From assembly GCA_028714375.1 (NCBI GenBank), contig JAQTMK010000002.1, forward strand, positions 21,812-85,811: a stretch of 64,000 nucleotides of DNA, in the 5' to 3' direction. The position numbers and the translations under genes are program-made. The notes under the pieces are model-generated. The model ran no database searches. It worked only from the letters and a program-made list of their open reading frames with translations, and was not told the origin of the DNA. Shown here one piece after another: positions 15,266-28,059 of this stretch (positions are counted from its first letter, which is position 1; the number at the start of each line of letters is the position of its first letter). Source of the stretch: Candidatus Nanoarchaeia archaeon. Lineage in GTDB: Archaea; Nanobdellota; Nanobdellia; SCGC-AAA011-G17; JACPNG01.

Positions 15266-15348
15266 TTTTACTTTATTAATGGGTGAGACAAACTTTAAAT
15301 ATATTATTCTACAAAAAAATAGATAAAAGAGAGGTTCTATTCAAGAAT

Positions 15349-17025
15349 ATGAAAAAAACAACAAAAATAGTGATTTTGGTATTTCTGATAGCTATAATAT
15401 TAAAATTTGCTTTAAGTTTTTTAGTAAACAATCCAATAGCGTTCAGTGATGATTATACCTATATAAAATTAGCAAGAAATATTTTTTATTTTAACACATT
15501 CTCGGTAAACAGCCAAAACCCATTGTACTATCCTCCGTTATATCCACTTATTTTATCTTTTACTTATTTGGTTAAAGATATGAATTTAATATTCGTTCTT
15601 ATGAAACTAATAAATTCAATAATTTCATCCCTGATTATCTTTCCGATTTTCCTTCTAGCCAGAGAATTTCTGGATGAGAGAGAAACAATTATCTTAACGA
15701 TAATAACTGCCCTGCTTCCTTACAATATCTTATTCTCAAATGTAATAATGGCAGAGAATTTATTTTATCCTCTGGTTTTATTTTCAATATATTTTATTTA
15801 CAAGTCCTTCACAACAAAGAAAATTACCTATGACATTCTTGCCGGAATTTTTATTTCACTAAGTTATTTAACAAAAACTCTCGGTCTCGGATTAATATTT
15901 GTGGTGTTAATCCCATTCTTGTATAAATTAATTAAAGGAAATTATTATGAAATAAAGAAAAAAATAGTTATGGCAGTATTCTTTATTTTAGTTTCATTAC
16001 CTTGGTTTATCAGAAATTTCGAGTTGTTTGGTTTTAGTTTAGGTCTATTTGCAGGAGGCTATCCAACAACAAAAATAACAACTGCGATTTCTTCAACGAA
16101 CTATTTAACATTAATTGGATGGTTTTTTGTTTATCTTGGCTATTTAATAATTTCTTCAGCAATAATCTTTTTTGTATTTAATTTATCTTTCATAAAAAAT
16201 GCATCTGAAAAAAGAGAAAAAATTTTAAGTTTAATAGTCATATCCTCAATCTTTAGTTTTTTAATAATAGCTTCGATGCATCACATCAATGCTATTGCAG
16301 ATTCTCTTACAAATCTATTTTTCCTAAGAGGAAGACCTCTTGGAAGATATATTGAATTTTTAACTCCTTTAATTATTATCGGTGCGTTTATCGGATTTAA
16401 AAAAAGAAATCTTAAGTTTGAAAAAACAGCCCTAATCATACTAACTGCCTTAGCAGCGGTTGTAATCTCACAACTGATATATTATCAATTGTTCCCGGTG
16501 AATACAATTAGTCTATCATTGGTGGGGGGGATAACTTATATAATTGGAACAAATTTATCCTCATTTTTGTTGCCACTACTCTTAATTTTTTTAGCTGTGT
16601 TTGTATTTATAATTTCAAAGATAAAAATAAACTATCTTGTTTATGTTTTCATAACTTTAATGATGTTAACCAGCTTAATAGGTTACTCAGCTATGCTAAA
16701 ACAATCTGGAGACTGGTCAAAAAATCCTCAGATTCATCTGGGAGAATTCCTGAATGATAATAAAATCTCAAATATCTTGATAGATAGGAATAATTGTATA
16801 GAAAAGCTTACAAAAACAACAACTAATGAAGGAATTTGTGATTATGAACATGACATAACTATTATAGGTTTAAAAACAAATGACAATATTTTGATAGATT
16901 TTCCGTCAGAACAGAACCTAAAAAATAATGATTTCCTAATAAGCAAGGAACAGTATAGTTATAAAATAGTAAAAGAAGAAAACAAAATCTATATATATTC
17001 CCTAAAAGACCCAGAATTAAAATGA
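15349..17025 (+). CDS. GT-C-fold membrane glycosyltransferase (ArnT/PMT-like, Dol-P-sugar dependent)
   Basis: Polytopic membrane protein with an acidic first-loop motif (FSDDYTYIKLARN) as in ArnT/PMT/GT83-like enzymes. The ORF-track start at 15283 would leave only 17 bp to the divergent upstream gene, so the Met at 15349 (MKKTTKIVILVFL) is more plausible. Confidence 0.5.
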   Translation: MKKTTKIVILVFLIAIILKFALSFLVNNPIAFSDDYTYIKLARNIFYFNTFSVNSQNPLYYPPLYPLILSFTYLVKDMNLIFVLMKLINSIISSLIIFPIFLLAREFLDERETIILTIITALLPYNILFSNVIMAENLFYPLVLFSIYFIYKSFTTKKITYDILAGIFISLSYLTKTLGLGLIFVVLIPFLYKLIKGNYYEIKKKIVMAVFFILVSLPWFIRNFELFGFSLGLFAGGYPTTKITTAISSTNYLTLIGWFFVYLGYLIISSAIIFFVFNLSFIKNASEKREKILSLIVISSIFSFLIIASMHHINAIADSLTNLFFLRGRPLGRYIEFLTPLIIIGAFIGFKKRNLKFEKTALIILTALAAVVISQLIYYQLFPVNTISLSLVGGITYIIGTNLSSFLLPLLLIFLAVFVFIISKIKINYLVYVFITLMMLTSLIGYSAMLKQSGDWSKNPQIHLGEFLNDNKISNILIDRNNCIEKLTKTTTNEGICDYEHDITIIGLKTNDNILIDFPSEQNLKNNDFLISKEQYSYKIVKEENKIYIYSLKDPELK

Positions 17026-17897
17026 AAGTAATAATTTCAATACCTGCATACAATGAAGAAAAAAATCTCCTAGATGTAATAAAAGAAATAAAAGAAACTA
17101 TGTCAAAAACAAAATATAATTATTCTATTCTTGTCTTAGATGATGGTTCTAGAGATAAAACTGCAGAAATTGCTAAAAAAGCAGGAGCAATAATTATTTC
17201 AAATTCCAGAAACTTAGGCCTGGCTGAAACATTCAAAAAAGAAATGCAAGAGTGTGTTAATCTAGATGCAGATATAATTGTCCATACTGACGCAGATGGT
17301 CAGTATCCAGCGTTGTATATTCCTTACCTAATAAAAAAAATAGAAGAAGGGTATGATTTGGTTTTAGGAAGTAGATTTGGAAAAGGAAAATATTCAGAAA
17401 CCTTTTTAAAAAAAATTGGAAATGTTGCATTCGCTAAAATCTTCTCTGGATTGTTAAAAACAAAAATAACAGATACGACAACTGGATTCAGAGCATTTAC
17501 TAAAGAGGTTGCAAAACTCCCTCTTATTAACACATTTACCTATACCCAAGAACAATTAATAAGAGCAGGAAAAACTAAAATGAAAATAACAGAAATCCCG
17601 ATAACGACAAGAAAAACAAGAAAAAGTAAATTATTCAATGGTCCAATAGATTATGCAATAAAAGCGTGGATTAACATTTTTAGAATCTATAGGGATTATG
17701 CTCCATTAAAATTCTTCGGCCTGTTTGGTGGGATTTTCATATTAGTGGGATTTATTTTGGGTGTGTGGGTAATTTATAATATAATAACCGCTGGAGCAGC
17801 TGGCGGAATCCCAAGAGTAATACTCTCCGCATTGTGTATAATTACCGGTCTACAGATTTGGTTCTTTGGATTCTTAGCAGATATGATAAGAAAATAA
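17022..17897 (+). CDS. GT2 glycosyltransferase, dolichyl-phosphate mannose/glucose synthase-like, with a C-terminal TM hairpin
   Basis: ISIPAYNEEKNL ... VLDDGSRDKT ... HTDADGQ (DxD) is the GT2 DPM1-like signature. The ATGA overlap with the upstream GT-C gene indicates coupling. Confidence 0.8.
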   Translation: MKVIISIPAYNEEKNLLDVIKEIKETMSKTKYNYSILVLDDGSRDKTAEIAKKAGAIIISNSRNLGLAETFKKEMQECVNLDADIIVHTDADGQYPALYIPYLIKKIEEGYDLVLGSRFGKGKYSETFLKKIGNVAFAKIFSGLLKTKITDTTTGFRAFTKEVAKLPLINTFTYTQEQLIRAGKTKMKITEIPITTRKTRKSKLFNGPIDYAIKAWINIFRIYRDYAPLKFFGLFGGIFILVGFILGVWVIYNIITAGAAGGIPRVILSALCIITGLQIWFFGFLADMIRK

Positions 17898-17898
17898 A

Positions 17899-19320
17899 TT
17901 ACTTCTTCATAATTCTTTTTATAATGGACATCGGACTTACATATCCTCCCATTAACTGGTGGAATCCTTTAACCCTTTTCTTGAATTCATAAAAAGAATT
18001 TATTTTAGATAGTTGATGGATAATATACCCAGGTCTGAAATAAAAACTCTTCAAAAAATATTTTTGCATTTTTCTTACTTGCTCTGGTGTAAAATCTTTA
18101 GTTTTTATAACGCCCAATTCCATATAATCCATCTTTTCCCAATCCAGTTCTTCCATCTCACCAAATTTTTTGACCAGTTCAACAACCTCGGTCCCTGGGA
18201 AAGGAGTCATAACACTAACTTGAATGCAATCTGGTTTAATTTCCTTGGCAAATTTCAGACTCTGTTTCATATCTCTTATTGTCTCCCCTGGAGTCCCAAC
18301 AATAAATGTAGCTTGGGTAAATATCCCAACCTTGTTAGCTAATCTAAATGCTCTTCTCACCTGATCTAAAGTAATTCCTTTCTTGAGATAGTTATCTAAG
18401 ACCGCCTGTACTCCAGACTCAACACCAAATGAAATGAATTCGCATCCATGTTCTTTCATTTTTATCAGCAAATCTTCATCAACTAAATTAACTCTTGTAT
18501 TGCATCCCCATTTAATTTTTATCCCCCTCTGTTTCAAAATTTCAAATATTTCAATAGCCCATTTCTTGTTCATAGTAAAAGAATCATCATTAAACCATAT
18601 ACCTTTAATGTAATAGGTTTTAACCAAATGTTCGATTTCATCAGCATAGTTTTTAGCACTTCGGAAAAATACTTTTCCATTACAATTTAAGTTAGTTGCA
18701 CAGAAAGTACAATGATAAGGACATCCTCTCGTACCAATTACTGTAGTAGATGGGCTTGGAACAGTCCAACTGGACCTCCCAACACTATATTCTAAGTATT
18801 TATCCATAGGCAATAAATCTCTTGCAGGAAAAGGCAGCTCATCTAAGTTCTCAATAAAGGTTTCAGCACCAGTAAATTTTATTTTTTCATTTTCTTTGTA
18901 ATAAATCCCCTTTACACTCTTAATATTTTTTCCGCTCTTTAATGCATCTAGCAGATTAACTATTATCTTTTCCCCCTGCCCCTTAATAACTACATCAAAA
19001 CCATAAGAGTTAAGCATATCTTCTGGTAAAGTAGAAGGATGGACTCCCCCCGCAACAAAAATAGCATTAGAAACATTAATTCTTATATCACTAACTAGAG
19101 ATTTCATATCTTTAAGCATGTCTGTCATAAAGCCAATTCCAATCACGTCAGGTTTAATTTCTCTAACCTGTTTGATTAAATCCTCGCGACTAGTATTAAA
19201 TGTGCAATCTATTATACTAACCTCCAATCCATTTTTTCTCATATAAGAAGCCAAATAAGCAATTCCCAACGGTGGGCTGCTATAAGGAAAAAATCTTGGA
19301 TATATCAATAAAGTTTTCAT
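17899..19320 (-). CDS. B12-binding-domain radical SAM enzyme (class B radical SAM; probable methyltransferase/tailoring enzyme)
   Basis: N-terminal cobalamin-binding-like Rossmann domain (LLIYPRF...PLGIAYLASYMRKNGLEVSIID) followed by the CxxxCxxC cluster GTRGCPYHCTFCATN. Confidence 0.85.
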   Translation of the reverse strand: MKTLLIYPRFFPYSSPPLGIAYLASYMRKNGLEVSIIDCTFNTSREDLIKQVREIKPDVIGIGFMTDMLKDMKSLVSDIRINVSNAIFVAGGVHPSTLPEDMLNSYGFDVVIKGQGEKIIVNLLDALKSGKNIKSVKGIYYKENEKIKFTGAETFIENLDELPFPARDLLPMDKYLEYSVGRSSWTVPSPSTTVIGTRGCPYHCTFCATNLNCNGKVFFRSAKNYADEIEHLVKTYYIKGIWFNDDSFTMNKKWAIEIFEILKQRGIKIKWGCNTRVNLVDEDLLIKMKEHGCEFISFGVESGVQAVLDNYLKKGITLDQVRRAFRLANKVGIFTQATFIVGTPGETIRDMKQSLKFAKEIKPDCIQVSVMTPFPGTEVVELVKKFGEMEELDWEKMDYMELGVIKTKDFTPEQVRKMQKYFLKSFYFRPGYIIHQLSKINSFYEFKKRVKGFHQLMGGYVSPMSIIKRIMKK

Positions 19321-19351
19321 GTTTTTTTACCCTATTTGCTTGTTTAAAAAT

Positions 19352-20308
19352 CTATTTCTTTAAAATATAACTAACCTGAATCCCGTTTTTATCATCTTTT
19401 AAACTTCTGGCTAACCCATCATACCTTATATATAAGGAGAATATGTTCCCATTCCTAGACTTATTAGCAATTTTAAATCCTGCATTAATAAACATTTTTT
19501 CATACCTTTCTGGTTTCCATAGCTTAGTCATCTCTTCAATAAAATTATTATTCCATCCATGGGCATTTTTTCCCAAAGCATATCTAATTGGGTCTCTATA
19601 AAACTTTTTATCCCTTAGGGCTTCTTTAATATAACCAACTTGGGTTCCAATAGATATAAAATGGGCAAGATACCATTTGGGTGTTGGAAATGAGATTAAA
19701 ACTTCTCCATCTTTCTTTAAGGTTCTATACATCTCATTAAGATAAAGCTGTTGTTGTTTAACGTGTTCCAAAACAAAATTAGATATAAAAAAATCAACAC
19801 AACCATCCCTGAGGGGCAGATATTCACTATTAGCATAAAAATCTATGGGGGAGATAGGGTCAACAGGAGCATAAGCACTTTTTCCAAAATTATATTCGAT
19901 TCCATGTATTCTTAAATTAATTAATCTCTGTAACCCCTTATGTCCACATCCATTATCAATAATCAAAGAATTTTCTTTTCCACTCAGATGTTCTAAAACA
20001 AGATTATTAGCGATTTCAGCATTATAACAATACCTTGGATTTTCTTCTTTAACAATAATTTCATTTAAAAATTCTCCATTCGTTTCTTTAAAATCTTTAG
20101 CAAAACTTTCTATGAAAGGATACAAAAATGGAGTTTCAAATGATAAGTTTCCTTGAAATTTAACATTCCTTATTGGATATGCTCGCTTACACTCTCCACA
20201 ATAGAATATTTTCTTCCCAAAAGATTCTCCCAATTTTAATCTAGGCCTTCCTATACAACTAGGACATCCCAATAAACTAAAGAGTTGTCTAGATAATGAT
20301 AGGGTCAT
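19352..20308 (-). CDS. Trm112-like zinc-ribbon domain fused to a class I SAM-dependent methyltransferase
   Basis: N-terminal LLGCPSCIG...FYCGECKRAYPIRNV matches the Trm112p/YcaR-like motif (CP.C...C..C...YPI). The downstream segment has motif I IIDNGCGHKG and a type-11 methyltransferase core. Confidence 0.65.
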   Translation of the reverse strand: MTLSLSRQLFSLLGCPSCIGRPRLKLGESFGKKIFYCGECKRAYPIRNVKFQGNLSFETPFLYPFIESFAKDFKETNGEFLNEIIVKEENPRYCYNAEIANNLVLEHLSGKENSLIIDNGCGHKGLQRLINLRIHGIEYNFGKSAYAPVDPISPIDFYANSEYLPLRDGCVDFFISNFVLEHVKQQQLYLNEMYRTLKKDGEVLISFPTPKWYLAHFISIGTQVGYIKEALRDKKFYRDPIRYALGKNAHGWNNNFIEEMTKLWKPERYEKMFINAGFKIANKSRNGNIFSLYIRYDGLARSLKDDKNGIQVSYILKK

Positions 20309-20354
20309 AGGTATCTAGGATTAAATCCATTTAATAAGATTTCTGAACAAAAAA

Positions 20355-21179
20355 CTATTTTTTGTATCCATATAAAATTATATGGGTCATAAAGGGTCTT
20401 AAAATCTTGCTCATTATTTTATCCATCCTGTAAAAGAAATTTGGAAAAAGGTTTGGCATCCAAAGAGGATTAAACATCAAAGAAGAATCATAACCCAGAT
20501 TTTGTAGATTGTTTTTCCTGAGTAATTTTTTCATTTGACCAATACTAAAATAAATTCCATAGGGTTGATGTCTTTTCCCTTTTTTTGTGTCTGATGTTGA
20601 ATATTTTAGATTTCCATGTCTGACCCACCTATACAGATAAGCAATAGACAATAAACTAACCTTATTCGGAAATCCTAGGATCACCTTATCTCTACTTACT
20701 CTGGCTAACTCAGAGATTGCTGTTTCATAGCTCTTAAGGTGATTAAAAACCGAGATACTATAAACAATATCAAAAGATTTATCTTTAAATGGCAACTCTA
20801 AGGCATTAGCAACAAGGTAGGTTCCTTTCTTATCATTTTTTTTACAATAATCAATCATATTTTTACTTGTATCTACCCCCGTAACGTCTGCCCCCCTCTC
20901 AGAGAGAAGTTTTGTAAACCTGCCAACTCCGCACCCAATTTCAAGAATTTTCTTACCTTTGACATTATTAACTACATTAAAAAAAGATTCCATCTGTCTT
21001 TTATCACAAATCTTCCCGCCTTTTGAAGAATATCTGATATCATTATAACTCTTAACAACCTCTGGATCATCATAAAAACTGGCAGTTAAAATATCTTCTT
21101 TTTCCATTTTAATCCTGACTGTTTCCTTTATCATATCTCTTAGCTTTAATAGTGAATATAATTGTTTGGATAATAACAC
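20355..21179 (-). CDS. Class I SAM-dependent methyltransferase (UbiE/type 11-like)
   Basis: Motif I ILEIGCGVGRF and acidic motif II (VTGVDTS). The 5' end of the ORF overlaps the upstream gene. The true start is probably the internal Met at about 21134 or 21107, the latter 1 nt after the upstream stop. Confidence 0.7.
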   Translation of the reverse strand: MLLSKQLYSLLKLRDMIKETVRIKMEKEDILTASFYDDPEVVKSYNDIRYSSKGGKICDKRQMESFFNVVNNVKGKKILEIGCGVGRFTKLLSERGADVTGVDTSKNMIDYCKKNDKKGTYLVANALELPFKDKSFDIVYSISVFNHLKSYETAISELARVSRDKVILGFPNKVSLLSIAYLYRWVRHGNLKYSTSDTKKGKRHQPYGIYFSIGQMKKLLRKNNLQNLGYDSSLMFNPLWMPNLFPNFFYRMDKIMSKILRPFMTHIILYGYKK

Positions 21180-21804
21180 TTAATATACCATAGCTTCCAA
21201 CCAAAATTAAAAATAGATCCAATCTATTAAATAAAGCAAATAAAATTAACAGAACAGAAGCCAATGGATCTCCATAATATACCTGTCTTACAATCCACAT
21301 CTTAGATTTAAATCCTGAAATAAAATTGTTTCCTTCTGAGAATAGAAATCTAAAGATTTCATAGGTTATAGCCATCAGTAAATAGGAAGAAATCAATAAA
21401 AATCCAAATAGCCAATAAATATCTCCAAATTGATTTGCTGCCCCCCAAGTAACTCCAAGGAAAATGACTATTCTGGAAAAATCGTTCAAAACTCTATCAA
21501 GCCAGAAGCCATAATCATTTTGTATCCCTTTGATTCTTGCTAAAGAACCATCTACTTTATCCAGAATAAGAATTAAAAAAAGCAAAAAAGCCCCTATTAG
21601 ATTTGTTTTAGCTGTATTTAAATAAAACAAATAAGCAATTGGAAAAGACAAGATTAAATAAAAAAAAGTAATCATATTCGGAGTAATAAAACTATTTTTA
21701 AGAGCATTAGCAATAGGTAAAGATAATATCCTTAAAAGTTTTCTGAGTAATGAAGCTTCATAATCCTTTTTTTTGGTTCCTTCTAATTTATTTAAATCTA
21801 ACAT
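21109..21804 (-). CDS. CDP-alcohol phosphatidyltransferase-family membrane protein
   Basis: Canonical D-x2-D-G-x2-A-R...G-x3-D-x3-D motif (DKVDGSLARIKGIQNDYGFWLDRVLND) in a polytopic membrane protein. Confidence 0.8.
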   Translation of the reverse strand: MLDLNKLEGTKKKDYEASLLRKLLRILSLPIANALKNSFITPNMITFFYLILSFPIAYLFYLNTAKTNLIGAFLLFLILILDKVDGSLARIKGIQNDYGFWLDRVLNDFSRIVIFLGVTWGAANQFGDIYWLFGFLLISSYLLMAITYEIFRFLFSEGNNFISGFKSKMWIVRQVYYGDPLASVLLILFALFNRLDLFLILVGSYGILSVIIQTIIFTIKAKRYDKGNSQD

Positions 21805-22678
21805 CTTTCCTTAAAATATAAACGAAAAAAATTATAAAGGTTGCGAAAAAGTAATAAAACACTCTTAATGTCAGGTAAACTGCTAAAACCAGCTCCTTGC
21901 CTGCTCCGTAGGGGGCATACATTAAGATAGCTATCCCTTCTCTTAAGCCTAACCCATTAATTGTTATGGGTATTGAAGACAATAATAATATTGCCATATT
22001 CAATAAAACAACTGTAATTAAACTAATCTCAAATCCCATCGCCTTAAAGGCAAACCAAAAAGCTATTCCGGTAACCCCCCATTTAAGAACTGTAAGTATA
22101 AGATTAAGGATAATTTTCATATAATTTTCTAAGATATAAAGTCTAGCTTCAGCAATATATCCATAAATCCTCTTAAAGAATATTTTAGCAATAAAATAAA
22201 AGATTAAACCAAGAATAATAACCCCCACTATCAAATAAAGAATATATTTCATTGGGATAAGTTTAGGGAGAATAAAAAAAGAAAATAGAACTAAAACAAT
22301 AAGAGTTATCGTTTTATCCAGGATCATATAAAACACAGATTTATGATATTCAATGTTTTCTTTTTTTAGAAAAAAGGCTATTGAAAACTCTCCAAGTCTT
22401 CCAGGAAGAAAACAACCATAAGCCCAGCTCAATGAATAATATCCCAAAAATTTCTTTAGATCAAATTCTTTTGGTAAAAAAATATATACTGAATAAGCAG
22501 AAAGTAACAAAGCGATTAACAATAAAACAAGAACAACCAAGATATAGACTAAATTAATATTCTCGAATATAAAAAAAAACTCTTTAAAATCCACTTTCCA
22601 TAAAATAAATAAAATAATAGCTGCAGAAACAAAAATCCTAAGCAGATTCCTAAACACTCTTTTTTTATCCATTTTCAA
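21788..22678 (-). CDS. Flippase-like / LPG-synthase-TM (UPF0104) family integral membrane protein
   Basis: Eight predicted TM segments and the N-terminal RNLLRIFVSAAIILFILWKVDFKEF typical of this family, which is often paired with GT2 or lipid-headgroup enzymes. Confidence 0.5.
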   Translation of the reverse strand: MKMDKKRVFRNLLRIFVSAAIILFILWKVDFKEFFFIFENINLVYILVVLVLLLIALLLSAYSVYIFLPKEFDLKKFLGYYSLSWAYGCFLPGRLGEFSIAFFLKKENIEYHKSVFYMILDKTITLIVLVLFSFFILPKLIPMKYILYLIVGVIILGLIFYFIAKIFFKRIYGYIAEARLYILENYMKIILNLILTVLKWGVTGIAFWFAFKAMGFEISLITVVLLNMAILLLSSIPITINGLGLREGIAILMYAPYGAGKELVLAVYLTLRVFYYFFATFIIFFVYILRKDVRFK

Positions 22679-24138
22679 CCTTTATAAAACATGATTCTCG
22701 AGATAATTGAACTAACTCCTCTAATGATCCTTCTTATATCTTTTAAGTTTCTTATAGACCTCATATTCTGGAAGATAACTCTGGGAGAAGTGTAATATCT
22801 CAGGTTCATCTTTCTTATAATCCCATTTAGTTCTTTCTTAGAAAGATATTTGGTTTTCATAACAGCGCCATGACAACCATCAAAATCTTCCCAAGAATTA
22901 TATTCAAATAAATTCATAGATCTAGCCTCTTCATACAATTTTGTTCCAGGGAATGCCGCAGCCAATGTAAATTGCACATAATCTGCATGAACTTGTTTTG
23001 CAAATTTAATAGTTTCACTGATTGTTTCTTTTGACTCTTCTGGTAATCCAATAACAAAACTTCCAGAAGACATGATCCCTGCTTTTTTAGTTAATTTAAC
23101 CGCATTAATTATTTGTTCTTTAGTTATCCCTTTAGAGGAGGTTTTTAATATTTTATCGCTGCCAGATTCAAAACCATAAAAAATATCTTTGCATCCAGCT
23201 TTTTTCATTAATCCCAATGTTTCTTCGTCAACATTATTAACTCTAGCCATGCACCTCCATATCAGATTGATTTTTCTTTTTATTAATTCATTGCATAACT
23301 CCCTTACTCTTTCCTTATCTATTAGGAAAGAATCATCATCAAAATAAATTTCATCTATATTGTAATTTCTTTTCAAAAACTCTATTTCTTCTGCTACATT
23401 CTTTGCAGACCTTGCCCTAAATTTATGACCATATAAAGTATCAGGCCATAAACAAAAAGTACACCGATAAGGACACCCCCTAGTAGAAATTAATAACGCA
23501 GCTTTTTTACCAGTATAAAATGCTTGTTGATATTTTTCAATTCTAAAGTCTTCTCTGTCAGCAAAAGGCAACTCATCCAAATTATCAATCAATTCTCTTG
23601 GATCATTAACAATTACCTTATCTTTTTCCCTATAAGTAATCCCCCTAATCTCTTTAACACCTTTTTTATTAGAATAATTGTTACACAATTCCAATAAAGT
23701 ACAATCAAGTTCTCCTTTTATTATAAGATCTACAAATTTGTAATTCTCAATAATTTCTTTGTCAAAATAACTTGCATGAGGCCCCCACAAAACAACTAAA
23801 CAGTTAACTTCTTTTTTGATTTGAAAAGCTGTTTCCAAATCATACATTATTGATGGTGTTGAAACTTCTAGTAAGATAATTTCAGGATTAAATTTTTTGA
23901 CATAATCAACAAAAGCAGGGATCCCAAACTCTTTTTCCACAGCATCAATACCTTTTGCATCAAAACCATTTTTCTTAAGAACTGCCAAAGCAGTCGCTAA
24001 ATAAACTGGGAAAGTTAAAACTTTATCTCCCCTCCTGTGTGGCCATCTAATGTTGGTCCTCGTTCCATATCCTTCTCCAGGCCAAGGAGGATTAGCAATT
24101 AAAACTCTCATATTAATCAATATTTCTCCAAACAACAA
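22675..24138 (-). CDS. B12-binding-domain radical SAM enzyme
   Basis: N-terminal B12-binding-like domain plus STRGCPYRCTFCLWP (CxxxCxxC). Paralogous to the radical SAM enzymes at 17899, 33634, 35165 and 45097. Confidence 0.85.
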   Translation of the reverse strand: MLFGEILINMRVLIANPPWPGEGYGTRTNIRWPHRRGDKVLTFPVYLATALAVLKKNGFDAKGIDAVEKEFGIPAFVDYVKKFNPEIILLEVSTPSIMYDLETAFQIKKEVNCLVVLWGPHASYFDKEIIENYKFVDLIIKGELDCTLLELCNNYSNKKGVKEIRGITYREKDKVIVNDPRELIDNLDELPFADREDFRIEKYQQAFYTGKKAALLISTRGCPYRCTFCLWPDTLYGHKFRARSAKNVAEEIEFLKRNYNIDEIYFDDDSFLIDKERVRELCNELIKRKINLIWRCMARVNNVDEETLGLMKKAGCKDIFYGFESGSDKILKTSSKGITKEQIINAVKLTKKAGIMSSGSFVIGLPEESKETISETIKFAKQVHADYVQFTLAAAFPGTKLYEEARSMNLFEYNSWEDFDGCHGAVMKTKYLSKKELNGIIRKMNLRYYTSPRVIFQNMRSIRNLKDIRRIIRGVSSIISRIMFYKG

Positions 24139-24171: not shown

Positions 24172-25305
24172 ATGAAACAAAATCAATTTTCTAGGACTGA
24201 ACAATTAGGATATTTCATACTCTCAAGGTTACCATTCAAGAAAAATATACTAAAGATTTTAAATAAAAAAAGGTTGGATAATATTAAAAAATTGAAAACT
24301 CCACTAAATCTTGTTTATTACATTACCAATAATTGTAACCTAAGATGTAAACATTGTTTCTACTGGAAGAACCTTAACAAAAATAATAAGAATGAATTAA
24401 CCCAGGAAGAACTGATTAAAATAGCAAAGAGTCTGAAACATCCATTAAATGTTTTATCAATAACTGGAGGAGAACCCTTTCTGAGAAAAGACATAGTTGA
24501 GGTTTGTGATCTTTTTTACAAACATAATAACACAAAGAGGATTAACATAACAACAAATGGCTTTGACTCAGAATTTATTTATGAGTCCGTAAAAAGAATC
24601 CTAAAGGATAATCCAAGGAAAAGACTTACGATCTTTATATCTCTTGATGGTATGGAATCCACCAATAATAAGATAAGAAGTAATGACAAGGCGTTTGCAA
24701 AGGCAACAGAAACAATAAAAAAATTAAAGCAAATTAAAAATTCGAACCTCTCATTACTGATTGCAACAACGATCCATAAAGAAAACTACCGAGAACTTCC
24801 TGAATTAATTAATTATTTAAAACTACTCAAGGTTGTACATAAGTTCAATCTATTAAGGGATAGTTCTATGGTTTTAGGTGTTGATAAAGACCTTACCTAT
24901 AATTTTAACCCACAATACTTCCATCCTCTTGAAAAAGAAGAGTTGTTCCATGTACACTCCTTAATAAAAGAAAACATAACAAATTTGCCATCCAAAGTAG
25001 AAGCACTAAAAATAAAAAATTCAATAGAAATTATCTTAAATAAAATTTCACCAGTAAAATGCCTCGCAAGATACACGGATGCAGTTCTGTTCCCAGAAGG
25101 AGATATCTCAATCTGTGAACCAACAAAAACTTTTACAAATATAAGAGATTATAACTATGATTTTTATAGGTTATGGAATTCTGAAGAAACTAAAAAAATA
25201 AAAGAAAAATTAAGGAATTGCAGTTGTATACAACCTGAAAACTTATTAAATTCAATGAAATACGATACAAATACCCTTACAAATGTATTTTCTCGCAAAT
25301 ACTGA
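24172..25305 (+). CDS. Radical SAM enzyme with a Cys-containing C-terminal (twitch/SPASM-like) extension
   Basis: YYITNNCNLRCKHCFY (CxxxCxxC), GGEPFL glycine-rich SAM motif, and C-terminal cysteines (CLARY...ICEPT...CSCIQ). Confidence 0.75.
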   Translation: MKQNQFSRTEQLGYFILSRLPFKKNILKILNKKRLDNIKKLKTPLNLVYYITNNCNLRCKHCFYWKNLNKNNKNELTQEELIKIAKSLKHPLNVLSITGGEPFLRKDIVEVCDLFYKHNNTKRINITTNGFDSEFIYESVKRILKDNPRKRLTIFISLDGMESTNNKIRSNDKAFAKATETIKKLKQIKNSNLSLLIATTIHKENYRELPELINYLKLLKVVHKFNLLRDSSMVLGVDKDLTYNFNPQYFHPLEKEELFHVHSLIKENITNLPSKVEALKIKNSIEIILNKISPVKCLARYTDAVLFPEGDISICEPTKTFTNIRDYNYDFYRLWNSEETKKIKEKLRNCSCIQPENLLNSMKYDTNTLTNVFSRKY

Positions 25306-26431
25306 CAATTTCATCAGCCAAGAGATTATCATTAAATTTCTTAGAATCAATAAATCCATTTTTTCTTATTTTTTCTCTAAGTTTATCATCATGATATAAT
25401 ATTAAAATTTTTTCAGCTAAATCCCCAGCATTTTCTACTCTATATAGTAATCCATTTTCTTTATCTCTTACAACTTCTTTAATTGAAGTCAGATTTGGAG
25501 CAATTATCGGCAGATTACATGCCCAATATTCAAAGGTTCTCAAGGTGATCCTTATCTTGCCGGATAATCTGTCTGGCAGAATAACTAAGCCAATATCCGC
25601 ATCTGACATATACTGCCTGACCTCATCCTGACTAACCCAACCAGTAAATTTAAAATTCCTGCTTAGATTGTTGGTTTTAACCTGCTCTTTAAGGATTGGG
25701 AGCATTTTACCATCTCCCACGACCCAACATTCAAAATTTTTAATTTGATTAATAACCAATTTGACACAAGGAACCAAAATCTCTAAACCATCTTGGGGGT
25801 CCATCCCCCCTTGTATAACCACCACAAATTTTTTATTATTCCTCTTTCTAGAAGAATAAAACTTATTCAAATCAACTCCATCATAAACTATTTCAACTTC
25901 CCGATGATATTTATCCTCAAGATATTTTTTGATAAATTTCGTATTGCTGATCACTTTGTCTGCATTTCTCATAGTCCATCCTTCAAAAAATCCTGCAAGA
26001 TTAGATAAAAATCCTTTGAAACCTTTGGTGTCCCTAACAAATTCAGCAACAAAATCCGTAGGATCAAAAATAACTGGAATATTTAAGATTTTACCAACTA
26101 ACAAAGAAGGGAAACCACAGATTGCATTATGCACAAAAATTAAATCAATTTTATTTTTTTTAACAATTCTTAATAATTTTATAAACAAAAAAGGATTATA
26201 AACTGCGTATTTAACTATCTTTTTTTTATCATTCCTATCAATATATTTCATCTTAACAAAGTTAATCCCAGTTTTGCTGCTCACCTCTTCCTCGGATCCT
26301 TCAAATGGAGAAAAAAGGAATGTATTATATCCCTTTCTTTTAAAAGCCCTTGCTATAGCATAAACTCTTGGTGCCCCCCCTCCTTTATTCGGGATAATCA
26401 TATCATTTACGACTAACAGGACATTTTTCAT
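25277..26431 (-). CDS. GT4 (GT-B fold) glycosyltransferase
   Basis: N-terminal GGGAPRVYAIARAF and a C-terminal EX7E-like region (FEYWACNLPIIAP...GLLY), typical of group 1 glycosyltransferases. Confidence 0.8.
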   Translation of the reverse strand: MKNVLLVVNDMIIPNKGGGAPRVYAIARAFKRKGYNTFLFSPFEGSEEEVSSKTGINFVKMKYIDRNDKKKIVKYAVYNPFLFIKLLRIVKKNKIDLIFVHNAICGFPSLLVGKILNIPVIFDPTDFVAEFVRDTKGFKGFLSNLAGFFEGWTMRNADKVISNTKFIKKYLEDKYHREVEIVYDGVDLNKFYSSRKRNNKKFVVVIQGGMDPQDGLEILVPCVKLVINQIKNFECWVVGDGKMLPILKEQVKTNNLSRNFKFTGWVSQDEVRQYMSDADIGLVILPDRLSGKIRITLRTFEYWACNLPIIAPNLTSIKEVVRDKENGLLYRVENAGDLAEKILILYHDDKLREKIRKNGFIDSKKFNDNLLADEIVSICEKIHL

Positions 26432-26526: not shown

Positions 26527-28059
26527 ATGTCTTCGGATGGATTAAAAAAAATATCAGAAGGAGCTTTAATAATTTTAGTCGGAACCATTCTGGCAAAATT
26601 ATTAGGGTATGCCTATAGGTTTATAATTGCAAGAACTGGGTCAGAAACTTATGGGATGATTTCAATAGGATTAGCGACCTTGGGAGTTTTGAGTGTAATA
26701 TCCACCTTAGGATTAGATCTCGCAGTAACAAGATATATCTCCTATTATCAGGAAAAAAATCAAACTGAAAGAGCAGTTGCCACTCTAAAATCCGCTCTTA
26801 AGATTACTACAATAACTTCAATCTTTATAGGAATTCTTCTATTTTTATTTTCAGATCAACTAGCTAATATATTATTCCACAAAGCAGAAGTAGCAATTAT
26901 CCTAAAGATATTTGCATTCGCAATACCCCTCTCAACAATAAGAAATATTTTCTTAGCTGCGACACGGGGTCTCAAAAAAATACAATATGAAATTTATTCT
27001 AAGAGTCTATCTGAAAATATACTAAGAATAGCCTTTACGATTATTGTAATTATAATGGGTTATAGACTATTTGGGATATCGGTTGCATATGTTCTTGCAA
27101 TTCTAATCAGTTTAGTTATTTCATTCTACTTTTCAGAAAAAAATATTCCAATACTAAAAACAAACAAAACAGCTTCTATGAAAAAAGAACTTTTAACATA
27201 TGCTATTCCATTAACAATCGCATCTATATTTCTTCTTATTATGGTCTGGACAGATACAATAATGATTGGTTTTTTTAGAACAATGTCTGAAGTTGGGATC
27301 TACAATGCTGTAATGCCTCTCTCACAATTAATGCATATCTTTACAACCGCATTCATTGCCTTGTTCCTCCCTATTATAACTGAACTTTTCGCCAAAAACA
27401 ATTTAGAAGAGATAAATCAAATATACAAAACAATCCTCAAATGGGTATTAATTATAAATCTTATAATCCTTTCATTGTTCTTAACATTCCCATCACAAAT
27501 TTTAACAATCCTTTTTGGTCCAGAATACTCAATTGGAGCAACCTCTTTGATGATCTTATCTGTTGGAGCATTTCTCTATTCTTTTGCTCTAATCTCCTTC
27601 CAAATCCTGATAATATTCAAAGAAACAAAAAGAATAATGTTTATTTCAATAGCTGCTACTCTAATAAATATCATCCTGAATTATCTGCTCATCCCAAGGA
27701 TGGGAATTAATGGTGCGTCAATAGCAACAAGCATTTCATTCCTCATCTTTTCTATCTTAATCTTCTTAAAAAGTACAAATCTTATAAAAAGATATCCAAT
27801 TAGCTCTAAGTTTTTAAATGTAATTTTCTGTTCAGTAGTATCTCTCAGTTTCTTAATTTTAATTAAAGGATACGTTAATTTTAATAATAAAATTTTAAAT
27901 CTGATTGTGTTAGGGGTTTCACTTATTATAGTTTATTTGATACTCTTAATAATAACAAAATCCTTTGGCAAAGAAGACATAGATACTATAAGAAATCTTC
28001 AACAGAAGGTGAGGATTAATTTTAACCCAATAAATAATATTCTAAGAAGATTTATCTGA
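26527..28059 (+). CDS. MOP-superfamily oligosaccharide flippase (Wzx/AglR-like polysaccharide biosynthesis protein)
   Basis: Protein of about 510 aa with at least 12 TM segments. The N-terminus (ALIILVGTILAKLLGYAYRFIIAR) is typical of Wzx/RfbX-like transporters. Confidence 0.75.
   Translation: MSSDGLKKISEGALIILVGTILAKLLGYAYRFIIARTGSETYGMISIGLATLGVLSVISTLGLDLAVTRYISYYQEKNQTERAVATLKSALKITTITSIFIGILLFLFSDQLANILFHKAEVAIILKIFAFAIPLSTIRNIFLAATRGLKKIQYEIYSKSLSENILRIAFTIIVIIMGYRLFGISVAYVLAILISLVISFYFSEKNIPILKTNKTASMKKELLTYAIPLTIASIFLLIMVWTDTIMIGFFRTMSEVGIYNAVMPLSQLMHIFTTAFIALFLPIITELFAKNNLEEINQIYKTILKWVLIINLIILSLFLTFPSQILTILFGPEYSIGATSLMILSVGAFLYSFALISFQILIIFKETKRIMFISIAATLINIILNYLLIPRMGINGASIATSISFLIFSILIFLKSTNLIKRYPISSKFLNVIFCSVVSLSFLILIKGYVNFNNKILNLIVLGVSLIIVYLILLIITKSFGKEDIDTIRNLQQKVRINFNPINNILRRFI

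What the first reader, a model, noticed from the sequence alone, without database searches (positions are those of the whole stretch)
17899..24138. Minus-strand operon: two B12-radical SAMs bracketing a lipid-headgroup-like module
Read in transcription order the genes are: a B12-radical SAM (22675-24138), a UPF0104/LPG-synthase-TM-like membrane protein, a CDP-alcohol phosphatidyltransferase with the full DG..AR...G...D...D motif, and a type-11 SAM methyltransferase. These are followed by a Trm112-like zinc-ribbon fused to a second methyltransferase and another B12-radical SAM. CDP-alcohol transferases plus PmtA-like type-11 methyltransferases are the classic route to N-methylated phospholipid headgroups. 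In a glycan island the same set could instead install a methylated phospho-alcohol substituent (phosphoethanolamine/phosphocholine-like) on a glycan. Either reading is interesting in an archaeon.
Basis: inference. Interest (0 to 1): 0.7.

Follow-up and report, generated by a model that had tools for sequence, protein, structure and literature searches.

The report
Variable phospho-alcohol cassette in archaeal glycan island
Six real co-directional genes in a DPANN archaeon's surface-sugar island combine a conserved radical-SAM/flippase backbone with a strain-specific two-gene insert (an unusual CDP-alcohol phosphotransferase plus a methyltransferase), which most likely decorates a lipid-linked sugar or lipid head group and is not a housekeeping phospholipid pathway.

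Summary
All six minus-strand genes are real and carry the stated domains. One detail is wrong: the CDP-alcohol transferase has Asn where the catalytic fourth Asp should be, with an Asp one residue later.

The organism is a Candidatus Nanoarchaeia (DPANN) MAG. The locus lies in a ~47 kb glycosylation island with AglB, three GT2+GT-C pairs and five B12-radical SAM genes.

The "operon" is a mosaic:
- A sister genome (radical SAMs 90-91% identical) has rSAM1, the UPF0104 protein, the Trm112-methyltransferase and rSAM2, but lacks the 1.45 kb CDP-OH + MT11 pair.
- rSAM1 is HpnJ-like (below cutoff). In 41 of 62 bacterial loci it sits directly after a homolog of the upstream GT4.
- The UPF0104 + CDP-OH + methyltransferase trio, with a B12-radical SAM nearby, recurs in three other loci.

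The transferase is not a housekeeping archaetidylinositol-phosphate or archaetidylserine synthase. Its closest solved relative is AF2299, whose donor and acceptor I know of no assignment for. The closest homolog in the metagenome scan sits in a PEP-mutase phosphonate cluster, but no PEP mutase or cytidylyltransferase homolog turned up in ~75 kb here.

Best reading: an accessory make, tailor and flip module that adds a methylated phospho(no)-alcohol to a lipid-linked sugar. The chemistry is unresolved.

The parts
22675..24111 (-). rSAM1: HpnJ-like class-B radical SAM enzyme (478 aa from M10; the ORF extends to 24138)
   Evidence: Radical_SAM 81.7 bits; B12-binding 25.4 bits, sub-threshold. Best NCBIfam match is HpnJ at 315.7 bits, full length, against a cutoff of 577.6. 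CxxxCxxC motif is RGCPYRCTFC. The family has more than 2000 members. It is 91% identical in the sister genome. A GT4a homolog sits directly upstream in 41 of 62 bacterial loci.
21788..22672 (-). UPF0104 / LPG_synthase_TM (MprF-flippase-like, 'PplT') membrane protein
   Evidence: PF03706 121.9 bits. TIGR00374 flippase-like domain 46.4 bits, above the 43.2 cutoff; HpnL 26 bits, far below 196. Only 52% identical to the sister-genome ortholog, the most diverged shared gene. It overlaps the CDP-OH start by 17 nt.
21109..21804 (-). AF2299-like CDP-alcohol phosphotransferase with D4 replaced by Asn (N107-D108); first gene of the variable cassette
   Evidence: PF01066 35.9 bits. Below every equivalog cutoff. 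Best PDB match is AF2299 (4O6M) at 78.7 bits, against 28 bits for PIP synthases. Absent from the sister genome. Closest relatives are P0156 (50%) and P0157 (43%, same N-D motif).
20355..21107 (-). MT11: class I SAM methyltransferase (250 aa from the ATG 1 nt after the CDP-OH stop; NCBI aa); second gene of the variable cassette
   Evidence: Methyltransf_11 88.7 bits. Absent from the sister genome at this position. Near-orphan: the next homolog is 33% identical. Top PDB hits are phosphoethanolamine N-methyltransferases at 55-56 bits, over the SAM core only.
19352..20308 (-). Zinc-ribbon (Trm112-like, CPSC...CGEC) fused to a class I methyltransferase
   Evidence: Methyltransf_11 40.8 bits; Trm112p 18.2 bits, below the 22 cutoff. 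81% identical ortholog in the sister genome. No PDB sequence hit.
17899..19320 (-). rSAM2: B12-binding radical SAM enzyme
   Evidence: B12-binding 86.9 bits and Radical_SAM 85.4 bits. Best NCBIfam matches are BchE 222, HpnJ 199, Sden_1168 P-methyltransferase 169 and PhpK 144, all below cutoff. Orthologs scoring above 570 bits lie next to rSAM1 in L015, L019 and L022 and in the same operon in L011.
17022..17897 (+). AglJ-like GT2 (polyprenyl/dolichyl-phosphate hexose synthase type), convergent with rSAM2
   Evidence: Glycos_transf_2 87 bits. AglJ 146.6 bits (cutoff 325) and dolichyl-phosphate hexose transferase 100 bits. 85% identical in the sister genome.
15283..17025 (+). PMT_2-type GT-C glycosyltransferase, overlapping the GT2 start
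   Evidence: PMT_2 32.7 bits. The GT2 + UPF0104 + PMT/STT3-like GT-C neighbourhood is a described conserved archaeal context (PMC5898192). No homolog within the 21 kb sister locus.
24172..25305 (+). rSAM377: non-B12 radical SAM enzyme, divergent from rSAM1
   Evidence: Radical_SAM 83.7 bits and Fer4_12. 86% identical in the sister genome. Homologs lie within 5 kb of rSAM1 in 9 of 18 archaeal loci.
25277..26431 (-). GT4a: GT4 glycosyltransferase upstream of rSAM1 on the same strand
   Evidence: Glycos_transf_1 and Glyco_transf_4. Homologs scoring 200-250 bits lie directly upstream of rSAM1 homologs in 41 of 62 bacterial loci.
26527..28059 (+). Wzx/MurJ-type oligosaccharide flippase of the same island
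   Evidence: Polysacc_synt 106.5 bits, plus MatE and MurJ. 60% identical to the sister ortholog, the second most diverged shared gene.

Best explanation
The locus is a lipid-linked-sugar (or glycolipid head-group) tailoring line in the surface-glycan island of a DPANN archaeon. It is built from nested modules.

1. Conserved backbone. A GT4 (and/or the AglJ-like GT2) puts a sugar on a membrane-anchored carrier at the cytoplasmic face. The HpnJ-like rSAM1 and its frequent partner rSAM2 remodel that sugar by radical chemistry, either C-methylation or an HpnJ-type rearrangement. The UPF0104 protein flips the product. A PMT_2-type GT-C can then transfer it outside the cell.

2. Strain-variable cassette. 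This is inserted immediately after the UPF0104 (flippase-like) gene. The AF2299-like CDP-alcohol phosphotransferase transfers a phospho-alcohol from a CDP-alcohol, or a phosphonyl group from a CMP-phosphonate, onto the lipid-anchored acceptor. MT11 methylates the added group or the sugar.

What is shown: gene content, the presence/absence polymorphism, the recurrent synteny, family assignments and the motif deviation.

What is inferred: the order of reactions, the carrier (dolichyl phosphate versus a membrane lipid), the donor, the methylation site, and the flippase role.
For: Island context:
- The island holds AglB/STT3, a GPT-family GT4, two Wzx flippases, three GT2+GT-C pairs, a carbamoyltransferase and an SGNH acyltransferase.
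- A tightly coupled GT2, B12-radical SAM and PMT_2 operon at 44426-47921 shows the same logic: a radical SAM enzyme placed between a GT2 and its GT-C.

Precedents:
- UPF0104 + AglD-like GT2 + PMT/STT3-like GT-C is a described archaeal neighbourhood, with the UPF0104 protein predicted to be the flippase (PMC5898192).
- GT4 + tailoring enzyme + UPF0104 is an experimentally supported scheme in the bacterial GpgSDF operon, with HexSDF cited there as analogous (PMC12713373).
- HpnJ, the nearest named family to rSAM1, is proposed to act on a lipid-linked glucosamine (PMC13459092).

Synteny:
- GT4a followed by rSAM1 is conserved in 41 of 62 bacterial loci.
- rSAM1 is followed directly by UPF0104 in the window, in L011 and in L010/L020.
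- The cassette is absent from the 90%-identical sister locus.
- The neighbouring UPF0104 protein (52%) and Wzx (60%) are the most diverged shared genes. This fits a change in the flipped substrate.
- The sister genome instead carries a sulfotransferase and PAPS-synthesis module.
- The trio recurs: L175 has GT2, UPF0104, CDP-OH (43% identical, same N-D motif), MT and an rSAM1-like B12-radical SAM. L019/L109 has GT-C, UPF0104, CDP-OH, MT, rSAM1 and rSAM2. L006 has MT, CDP-OH and UPF0104.
- Other CDP-OH + MT pairs sit between GT2 genes and a Wzx gene (L147, L148, L153, L156, L167).
Against: - No cytidylyltransferase is encoded in or next to the operon, and none homologous to the phosphonate-cluster enzymes exists in the window, so the donor's origin is unknown. 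The one NTP_transferase domain in the window is fused to a DegT aminotransferase 34 kb away.
- The catalytic base D4 is Asn. The same D-to-N change nearly abolishes M. tuberculosis PIP synthase activity (PMC4634129).
- Every characterised CDP-alcohol phosphotransferase that I know of makes phospholipids or soluble inositol/glycerol phosphodiesters. None is known to modify a glycan (my own knowledge).
- The methyltransferases in the recurrent trios are related only at the Pfam-family level, not as orthologs. Class I methyltransferases are also common in glycan clusters.
- Synteny enrichment was not tested against a formal null model.
- No biochemical or transcript data exist.
Confidence: 0.45

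Rival explanations
1. Membrane phospholipid head-group pathway. The CDP-alcohol transferase makes an archaetidyl-X lipid from CDP-archaeol. MT11 and/or the Trm112-methyltransferase N-methylate the head group in a PmtA/PEAMT-like way. The UPF0104 protein flips the new lipid, as MprF flips lysyl-PG.
For: - To my knowledge, the characterised family members use a lipid donor or acceptor, apart from those that make soluble inositol or glycerol phosphodiesters.
- The UPF0104 domain is the MprF lipid flippase domain.
- MT11's two best PDB hits are plant phospho(methyl)ethanolamine N-methyltransferases at 56 and 55 bits.
- CDP-OH + UPF0104 pairs are widespread in metagenomic loci.
Against: - It scores far below the cutoffs of every lipid-synthase equivalog.
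- It is absent from a sister genome whose flanking radical SAM genes are 90-91% identical, so it is dispensable.
- It is embedded in a glycan island with no CDP-archaeol synthase, decarboxylase or other lipid gene within ~75 kb.
- The PEAMT similarity covers only the SAM-binding core and barely exceeds generic methyltransferases (48.6 bits).
- MT11's nearest homologs show no lipid context.
- DPANN archaea generally lack lipid biosynthesis (my own knowledge).
Confidence: 0.22
2. Phosphonate decoration. The donor is a CMP-activated phosphonate such as CMP-2-aminoethylphosphonate or CMP-hydroxyethylphosphonate. The B12-radical SAM enzymes and the methyltransferases tailor the phosphonate by Fom3/PhpK-like C- or P-methylation and by N-methylation. 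The transferase then installs it on a lipid or glycan.
For: - The closest homolog in the metagenome scan (L091/L092, 37% identical, 135 bits) lies in a cluster with a cytidylyltransferase-PEP mutase fusion, phosphonopyruvate decarboxylase, an NTP_transf_3 protein, a B12-radical SAM enzyme, two methyltransferases, a GT4 and a PMT_2 GT-C.
- L093 (103 bits) has a cytidylyltransferase-like ORF at the contig end. L138/L141, L145 and L169 also couple CDP-OH genes to PEP mutase and/or phosphonopyruvate decarboxylase.
- CDP-OH genes are a recognised hallmark of predicted phosphonolipid clusters (PMC8942020).
- CMP activation of phosphonates has been demonstrated (PMC6697681).
- rSAM1 and rSAM2 both hit P-methyltransferase models at 144-169 bits, sub-threshold.
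Against: - No PEP mutase, phosphonopyruvate decarboxylase or homologous cytidylyltransferase is present in the six-frame translation of the 64 kb window, nor in the 3 kb and 7 kb beyond its ends.
- The closer relative L175 and L019/L109 show none in the DNA available.
- The L091 B12-radical SAM enzyme is about equally distant from the rSAM1 and rSAM2 clades (256-313 bits), so it is not an ortholog.
- BchE and HpnJ models score higher than the P-methyltransferase models.
Confidence: 0.15
3. The CDP-alcohol transferase is catalytically inactive. It would be a decaying or non-enzymatic membrane subunit, because its catalytic base is lost. The cassette would then contribute only a methyltransferase.
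For: - D4 is Asn107.
- D93N at the equivalent position nearly abolishes MtPIPS activity without affecting substrate binding (PMC4634129).
- The protein is a near-orphan: 6 representatives at E<=1e-30 among 1.84 billion.
Against: - The ORF is intact and its start overlaps the end of the upstream gene by 17 nt.
- The other 7 signature residues are kept.
- The identical N-D dipeptide is conserved in a 43%-identical relative (P0157) that sits in the same gene context.
- 10 of the 45 nearest representatives lack Asp at D4 (G, N, T or C) yet otherwise retain the motif pattern. This suggests the subfamily tolerates or compensates for the loss.
Confidence: 0.1

Closest known systems
AF2299 of Archaeoglobus fulgidus (PDB 4O6M) and the CDP-alcohol phosphotransferase family
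   Same: It is the best solved-structure match, at 78.7 bits over residues 6-152. D1, D2, G1, A, R, G2 and D3 all align. It shares the small polytopic membrane core.
   Different: AF2299 carries an extra N-terminal cytoplasmic domain, and I know of no assigned donor or acceptor for it. The window protein has Asn at D4. It is not fused or adjacent to a cytidylyltransferase, unlike the IPCT/DIPPS-type relatives.
Archaetidylinositol-phosphate, PIP, PGP and archaetidylserine synthases (housekeeping CDP-alcohol phosphotransferases)
   Same: Same Pfam family and the same signature region.
   Different: Scores are 56/180, 48/170 and 16-19/109-304 bits against the curated cutoffs. The gene is dispensable between sister genomes. 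Its context is glycan genes, not lipid genes.
Predicted phosphonolipid or phosphonoglycan tailoring clusters ('Burkholderiales_CDP-OH' group; Pnt pathway)
   Same: Relatives of this transferase (L091/L092 and others) sit beside a PEP mutase-cytidylyltransferase fusion, phosphonopyruvate decarboxylase, methyltransferases and a B12-radical SAM enzyme. The literature links CDP-OH genes to phosphonate clusters.
   Different: No pepM, ppd or pntC in the ~75 kb examined here. The published clusters are bacterial and their products are uncharacterised.
HpnI/J/K(/L) hopanoid side-chain module
   Same: rSAM1's best model is HpnJ, at 316 bits over its full length. It is followed by a UPF0104 protein, as HpnL is in that family, and preceded by a glycosyltransferase.
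   Different: It scores below the HpnJ cutoff of 578, and HpnL scores 26 against 196. There are no shc, hpnH or hpnG genes, the organism is an archaeon, and no deacetylase lies in the operon. The family occurs mostly in non-hopanoid glycan clusters.
GpgSDF (P. aeruginosa) and HexSDF (C. difficile) glycolipid operons; MprF
   Same: The logic of a GT4, then a cytoplasmic tailoring enzyme, then a UPF0104 flippase-like protein. The flippase domain is the MprF/PplT domain.
   Different: Tailoring here uses radical SAM enzymes, a CDP-alcohol transferase and methyltransferases instead of a deacetylase. The carrier lipid is unknown. GpgF's flippase activity is itself unproven.
Archaeal AglD-like GT2 + UPF0104 (arCOG00899) + PMT/STT3-like GT-C neighbourhood; bacterial ArnC/ArnD/ArnEF/ArnT
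   Same: An AglJ-like GT2 and a PMT_2 GT-C flank the operon and a UPF0104 protein lies inside it. Tailoring a polyprenyl-phosphate sugar before it is flipped parallels ArnD.
   Different: Four extra tailoring genes lie between the flippase-like gene and the GT2. No member of this neighbourhood type has been reported with a CDP-alcohol transferase.

Membership tests
CDP-alcohol phosphotransferase (PF01066) | Pfam domain above the gathering score | tested here: met
   35.9 bits against a cutoff of 22.
CDP-alcohol phosphotransferase (PF01066) | Eight-residue signature D1xxD2G1xxAR...G2xxxD3xxxD4, with D4 as catalytic base | tested here: not met
   Seven of eight residues are present. D4 is Asn107, followed by Asp108. 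D4N nearly abolishes MtPIPS activity. The N-D variant is shared with P0157, and 10 of 45 nearest representatives lack D at D4.
Housekeeping archaetidylinositol-phosphate synthase (NF040950), PIP synthase or PgsA | Score at or above the curated equivalog cutoff | tested here: not met
   56.1/180, 47.8/170, 18.7/304 and 16.4/109 bits.
Housekeeping lipid synthase | Conserved presence and synteny in close relatives | tested here: not met
   Absent from the sister locus whose flanking radical SAM genes are 90-91% identical.
HpnJ (TIGR03471) | Equivalog score of at least 577.6 | tested here: not met
   rSAM1 scores 315.7 bits and rSAM2 199.3 bits.
HpnJ (TIGR03471) | Hopanoid biosynthesis context (shc, hpnH, hpnG, hpnI, hpnK) | tested here: not met
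   None of these families is present in the window. Family contexts are glycan clusters.
Class B (cobalamin-dependent) radical SAM | CxxxCxxC radical SAM core plus an N-terminal B12-binding domain | tested here: met
   This row is for rSAM2: B12-binding 86.9 bits and Radical_SAM 85.4 bits, with the motif CPYHCTFC.
Class B (cobalamin-dependent) radical SAM | N-terminal B12-binding domain in rSAM1 | tested here: inconclusive
   PF02310 scores 25.4 bits against a cutoff of 32.1. Homologs are flagged weak, faint or absent. Full-length similarity to HpnJ and BchE suggests the domain is retained.
UPF0104 / LPG_synthase_TM flippase-like domain (PF03706, TIGR00374) | Domain models above their cutoffs | tested here: met
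   PF03706 scores 121.9 against 33.4, and TIGR00374 scores 46.4 against 43.2. Flippase activity is not testable here.
MprF (bifunctional) / HpnL | C-terminal aminoacyl-PG synthase domain; HpnL subfamily score | tested here: not met
   The protein is 296 aa and consists of the membrane domain only. MprF scores 21.6/600 and HpnL 26.2/195.65.
PmtA / phosphoethanolamine N-methyltransferase | Specific similarity beyond the SAM-binding fold, or conserved pairing with a phospholipid pathway | tested here: inconclusive
   Top PDB hits are PEAMTs at 55-56 bits, but only over residues ~28-129, against 48.6 bits for generic methyltransferases. No PmtA model appears among the 25 NCBIfam hits shown, out of 68. 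Homolog contexts are uninformative.
Phosphonate (Pnt) tailoring cluster | PEP mutase, usually with phosphonopyruvate decarboxylase and a PntC cytidylyltransferase | tested here: not met
   No homolog in the window six-frame ORFs, in the Pfam scans, or just beyond the window ends.
Trm112 | Pfam Trm112p above its gathering score | tested here: not met
   18.2 bits against 22. The four-Cys zinc ribbon (CPSC...CGEC) is present in the sequence.

The most novel reading that the evidence does not exclude
DPANN archaea and some other uncultivated lineages have an undescribed surface-decoration pathway. In it, a D4-less AF2299-type CDP-alcohol phosphotransferase attaches a CMP/CDP-activated, methylated phospho- or phosphono-alcohol to a dolichol- or lipid-anchored sugar. 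That sugar has first been rebuilt by an HpnJ-like radical SAM enzyme, for example by ring contraction to a cyclitol or by C-methylation. A dedicated UPF0104 flippase then exports the product. This would be the first CDP-alcohol phosphotransferase that modifies a glycoconjugate, and the first assigned function for the large GT4-associated HpnJ-like radical SAM family.
Probability: 0.15. Interest if true: 0.8.

Novelty: new variant of a known kind. Interest (0 to 1): 0.55.

Why it matters
- DPANN archaea depend on host contact, and their surface chemistry is essentially unknown.
- This locus gives a concrete, testable set of genes for a strain-variable surface or lipid decoration. One strain carries a phospho(no)-alcohol cassette where its sister carries a sulfation module.
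- It points to a small subfamily of CDP-alcohol phosphotransferases (157 representatives at E<=1e-10) that tolerates loss of the 'invariant' catalytic Asp. Its members sit in glycan and phosphonate clusters rather than in phospholipid pathways.
- It shows that an HpnJ-like radical SAM family with more than 2000 members is coupled to a GT4 across Bacteria and Archaea, with no known function.
- It raises a physiological question: why does a reduced-genome DPANN, not expected to make cobalamin (my expectation, not checked here), carry six B12-domain radical SAM genes in one island?

Tried and rejected
- Housekeeping lipid synthase: rejected on NCBIfam scores and on the presence/absence polymorphism.
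- Mobile-element insertion of the cassette: no direct or inverted repeats of note flank it, only AT-rich chance matches. No integrase lies nearby, and the nearest tRNAs are about 8 kb beyond the operon's downstream end.
- Structured RNAs: Rfam finds only three tRNAs in the window.
- MT11 function from homolog context: the three nearest homologs lie in one glycan and two unrelated contexts, none with a CDP-OH gene. No inference was possible.
- PDB sequence searches for the UPF0104 protein and the Trm112-methyltransferase returned nothing.
- PDB hits for the radical SAM enzymes (QCMT, AprD4, OxsB, TsrM, TokK at 28-89 bits) do not discriminate between possible chemistries.
- Calditol synthase comparison: the primary paper (PMC6305003) is not held and I had no Cds sequence. 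No Sulfolobus locus appeared among the 80 best GTDB hits.
- Extending the window to look for pepM gave only +3 kb and +7 kb, from short Logan contigs.
- The NJ placement of L138/L141 (PEP mutase, phosphonopyruvate decarboxylase, then CDP-OH) next to the window protein is not backed by pairwise scores. I do not rely on it.
- Literature search for DPANN + radical SAM + glycosyltransferase + B12 returned no paper.
- Structure prediction was not run. The tool returns no coordinates, so it could not resolve the N107/D108 geometry.

Full report
**1. Observation**

The region 17899-24138 holds six long minus-strand ORFs in DNA of about 30% G+C.

- Radical_SAM with a weak B12-binding hit.
- LPG_synthase_TM.
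- CDP-OH_P_transf.
- Methyltransf_11.
- Methyltransf_11 with a sub-threshold Trm112p zinc ribbon.
- B12-binding plus Radical_SAM.

Two of the genes are identical to proteins annotated in an NCBI MAG of 'Candidatus Nanoarchaeia archaeon', on a 154,785-nt contig (P0001, P0138). The host is therefore a DPANN archaeon.

With the start codons I prefer, the junctions are a 2-nt gap, a 17-nt overlap, a 1-nt gap, 46 nt and 31 nt (sequence). The 1-nt gap depends on my choice of MT11 start; NCBI's own call begins 27 nt further upstream. This layout fits one transcription unit. It diverges from a non-B12 radical SAM gene at 24172 and converges on a GT2 gene that ends at 17897.

One stated detail fails. 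The signature of the CDP-alcohol transferase is DKVDGSLAR-x8-GFWLDRVLND. The fourth Asp is Asn107, followed by Asp108. Alignment to the solved AF2299 structure places N107 on its D4. Alignments with homologs agree.

**2. Surroundings**

Coordinates of about 15-62 kb form one glycosylation island. It contains:
- AglB/STT3 at 52702-55323 and a GPT-family GT4 at 51663-52667.
- Two Wzx-type flippases.
- Three GT2+GT-C pairs.
- A carbamoyltransferase and an SGNH/AlgX-like protein.
- Sugar aminotransferases and acyltransferases.
- Five B12-domain radical SAM genes, with a sixth just beyond the window end.

Immediately downstream of the operon, and convergent with it, lie an AglJ-like GT2 (146.6 bits; dolichyl-phosphate hexose transferase 100 bits) and a PMT_2 GT-C. 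Upstream lie rSAM377, a GT4 ('GT4a') and a Wzx gene.

No PEP mutase or CDP-archaeol synthase was found. No cytidylyltransferase is encoded in or near the operon. The window's one NTP_transferase domain is fused to a DegT aminotransferase at 55444-57231. This covers ORFs of at least 150 aa scanned against Pfam, six-frame ORFs searched with cluster proteins from a relative, and the few kb beyond either end of the window.

**3. The operon is a mosaic**

A sister MAG (JAQTMY010000002, loci L009/L011) carries the same island. At this position it has rSAM1, the UPF0104 protein, the Trm112-methyltransferase and rSAM2, with no CDP-OH or MT11 gene. A DNA alignment shows a clean block of about 1.45 kb present only in the window.

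Protein identities between the two genomes are:

| Gene | Identity |
|---|---|
| rSAM1 | 91% |
| rSAM2 | 90% |
| rSAM377 | 86% |
| GT2 | 85% |
| Trm112-methyltransferase | 81% |
| carbamoyltransferase | 80% |
| GT4a | 74% |
| Wzx | 60% |
| UPF0104 | 52% |

The two predicted flippases are the most diverged genes. The UPF0104 gene directly abuts the cassette.

The sister genome has, beyond the GT2, a sulfotransferase with APS kinase and sulfate adenylyltransferase genes, plus an extra methyltransferase. None of these has a window homolog. The window's PMT_2 and cassette have no sister homolog in the 21 kb compared.

This is the pattern of strain-specific decoration cassettes in a shared glycan locus.

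**4. rSAM1 and rSAM2**

rSAM1's best curated model is HpnJ: 315.7 bits, end to end, against a cutoff of 577.6. The word-index search returned more than 2000 homologs, with 43-62% identity among the 120 best listed. They come from Woesearchaeota, Aenigmatarchaeota, Bathyarchaeota and Thermoplasmata, and from many bacteria including Anaerolineae, the PVC group, Acidobacteriota and Desulfobacterales.

Gene contexts are glycan clusters. Among 62 bacterial loci, 41 have a GT4a homolog (at least 150 bits) directly upstream on the same strand. rSAM377-like and Wzx genes recur nearby. rSAM1 therefore belongs functionally with GT4a, not with the 'head-group' genes.

rSAM2 orthologs (above 570 bits) sit next to rSAM1 in three other DPANN-type loci (L015, L019, L022) and in the sister operon. 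rSAM2's best models are BchE (222), HpnJ (199) and two P-methyltransferase families (169 and 144), all below cutoff.

The solved structures matched are QCMT, AprD4, OxsB, TsrM and TokK. They do not decide the chemistry.

**5. The CDP-alcohol transferase**

It is far below every equivalog cutoff. Its best solved relative is AF2299 at 78.7 bits; PIP synthases reach only 28 bits.

An exhaustive HMMER search of 1.84 billion representatives gives 2644 hits at E<=1e-3, 157 at E<=1e-10 and only 6 at E<=1e-30. The closest are P0156 (50% identical, canonical D4) and P0157 (43% identical, same N-D dipeptide).

Among the 45 nearest representatives, the D4 position holds D in 35, G in 6, N in 2, T in 1 and C in 1. 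Among 85 homologs from the fetched loci, it holds D in 68 and another residue in 17.

In M. tuberculosis PIP synthase, D4N nearly abolishes activity (PMC4634129). This subfamily is therefore unusual. Conservation of N-D across 43% identity, in the same gene context, argues against simple decay.

**6. Recurrent neighbours**

- P0157 lies in L175: GT2, UPF0104, CDP-OH, then on the opposite strand a methyltransferase, a 70-aa ORF and a B12-radical SAM gene 39% identical to rSAM1.
- L019/L109 have PMT_2, UPF0104, CDP-OH, a methyltransferase, rSAM1 and an rSAM2 ortholog.
- L006 (P0002, 33% identical) has a methyltransferase, CDP-OH and UPF0104 on a 2.5 kb contig.
- Other CDP-OH + methyltransferase pairs lie between GT2 genes and a Wzx gene (L147, L148, L153, L156, L167). 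Many CDP-OH + UPF0104 pairs exist.

The methyltransferases in these sets are related only at the family level. MT11 itself is a near-orphan, and the contexts of its homologs are uninformative. I did not test the enrichment against a formal null model.

**7. A phosphonate lead**

The closest homolog found in the metagenome scan (L091/L092, 37% identical, 135 bits) is surrounded by:
- PMT_2, a GT4 and a DUF362 protein.
- A methyltransferase, a B12-radical SAM enzyme and a second methyltransferase.
- An NTP_transf_3 protein and a SPASM radical SAM enzyme.
- A cytidylyltransferase-PEP mutase fusion and phosphonopyruvate decarboxylase.

L093 has a cytidylyltransferase-like ORF at its truncated end. 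L138/L141, L145 and L169 also join CDP-OH genes to PEP mutase and/or phosphonopyruvate decarboxylase.

The literature already links CDP-OH genes with predicted, still uncharacterised phosphonolipid clusters (PMC8942020). It also shows CMP activation of phosphonates (PMC6697681).

The window lacks all of the phosphonate-forming genes. This remains a rival reading about the identity of the donor.

**8. Mechanistic reading**

Several published schemes share one logic: synthesise on a lipid carrier at the cytoplasmic face, tailor, flip with a UPF0104 protein, then use the product outside the cell.
- The archaeal AglD-like GT2 + UPF0104 + PMT/STT3-like GT-C neighbourhood (PMC5898192).
- GpgSDF, with HexSDF cited there as analogous (PMC12713373).
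- MprF/PplT.
- HpnJ, proposed to act on lipid-linked glucosamine (PMC13459092). HpnL's function is still unknown.

The window's own operon at 44426-47921 places a B12-radical SAM gene between a GT2 and its PMT_2 GT-C, with overlapping gene boundaries. This independently suggests radical SAM tailoring of a polyprenyl-phosphate sugar.

I therefore read the focal locus as such a tailoring line. Its strain-variable cassette adds a phospho(no)-alcohol and methylates it or the sugar.

Only the following are shown: gene content, family assignment, the polymorphism and the synteny. The carrier, donor, acceptor, methylation site and flippase activity are all inferred. Confidence is about 0.45.

**9. 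Rivals**

- A true membrane phospholipid head-group pathway, about 0.22.
- A phosphonate donor, about 0.15. This is compatible with the main scheme.
- An inactive transferase, about 0.1.

**10. Verdict**

The locus is an uncharacterised variant of known make, tailor and flip glycoconjugate or lipid modules.
- The cassette polymorphism between sister genomes.
- The D4-less transferase subfamily and its relatives in phosphonate clusters.
- The HpnJ-like radical SAM family coupled to a GT4 across both domains.

Noticed in passing
window 44426-47921 (+): A tightly coupled three-gene operon: GT2 (224 aa), B12-radical SAM (439 aa) and PMT_2 GT-C (502 aa), with overlapping gene boundaries. It suggests that a B12-radical SAM enzyme acts on a polyprenyl-phosphate sugar between its synthesis and its transfer. 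GT2 next to a B12-radical SAM gene also recurs in L010/L020, L015 and L106.
   Followed up: partly
window 17899-19320, 22675-24138, 33634-35163, 35165-36595, 45097-46416; L171 11425-12810: There are five B12-domain radical SAM genes in the window, a sixth just past its end, and non-B12 radical SAM genes at 24172-25305 and 43263-44324, all in one glycan island of a DPANN genome. This implies a heavy dependence on cobalamin, which I would expect to be acquired externally (not checked).
   Followed up: no
L009/L011 16391-21437 (sister genome JAQTMY010000002.1): The sister strain carries a sulfotransferase, APS kinase and CysN/CysD-like PAPS-synthesis genes plus an AdoMet_dc-like gene. The window instead has the PMT_2 GT-C and the CDP-OH/MT11 cassette. 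Different decoration modules occupy the same island.
   Followed up: partly
window 52702-55323 (-), 51663-52667 (-), 50431-51675 (-): AglB/STT3 oligosaccharyltransferase, a GPT-family (PF00953) initiating transferase and a Wzx-like flippase sit side by side. This is the core N-glycosylation machinery of the island.
   Followed up: no
window 28483-30246 (+), 31381-32457 (+): A carbamoyltransferase (NodU/CmcH type) and an SGNH/AlgX-like protein suggest O-carbamoylation and O-acylation of the glycan. Both are conserved in the sister genome.
   Followed up: no
window 37726-38445 (-): A QueC-family (7-cyano-7-deazaguanine synthase-like) gene is embedded between glycosyltransferase genes. This is an odd place for a queuosine/archaeosine gene. 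It may be a PP-loop amidotransferase recruited to sugar chemistry.
   Followed up: no
window 55444-57231 (+): A fusion of a sugar-phosphate nucleotidyltransferase with a DegT/EryC1-type aminotransferase (595 aa). It is followed by a second DegT-like gene, a hexapeptide acyltransferase and a FemAB/GNAT-like protein.
   Followed up: no
window 13991-15265 (-): A fusion of a PNP_UDP_1 nucleoside phosphorylase domain with a phosphoribosyltransferase domain (424 aa). Homologs also lie near the GT2/GT-C pair in L022 and L085.
   Followed up: no
window 1053-1874 (-); L172 7211-8467: An IF-2B-family protein (possibly ribose-1,5-bisphosphate isomerase) lies in the window, and a RuBisCO large subunit lies about 1 kb outside it. 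Together these may represent the archaeal AMP/nucleoside salvage pathway (my inference).
   Followed up: no
window 4804-5823 (+), 8443-9639 (-), 11657-13879 (-): Proteins with a Kazal protease-inhibitor domain, a lamin-tail domain and a weak, sub-threshold Ig-like hit, respectively. They are candidate surface or host-interaction proteins flanking the island.
   Followed up: no
L122, L130-L135, L146, L154, L157 (metagenome contigs): A recurrent unrelated locus: a ~600-aa gene weakly similar to the B12-radical SAM queries on the opposite strand, then CDP-OH, UPF0104, NTP-transferase, and a second CDP-OH on the opposite strand. It shows that CDP-OH + UPF0104 pairing is widespread beyond this subfamily.
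   Followed up: no
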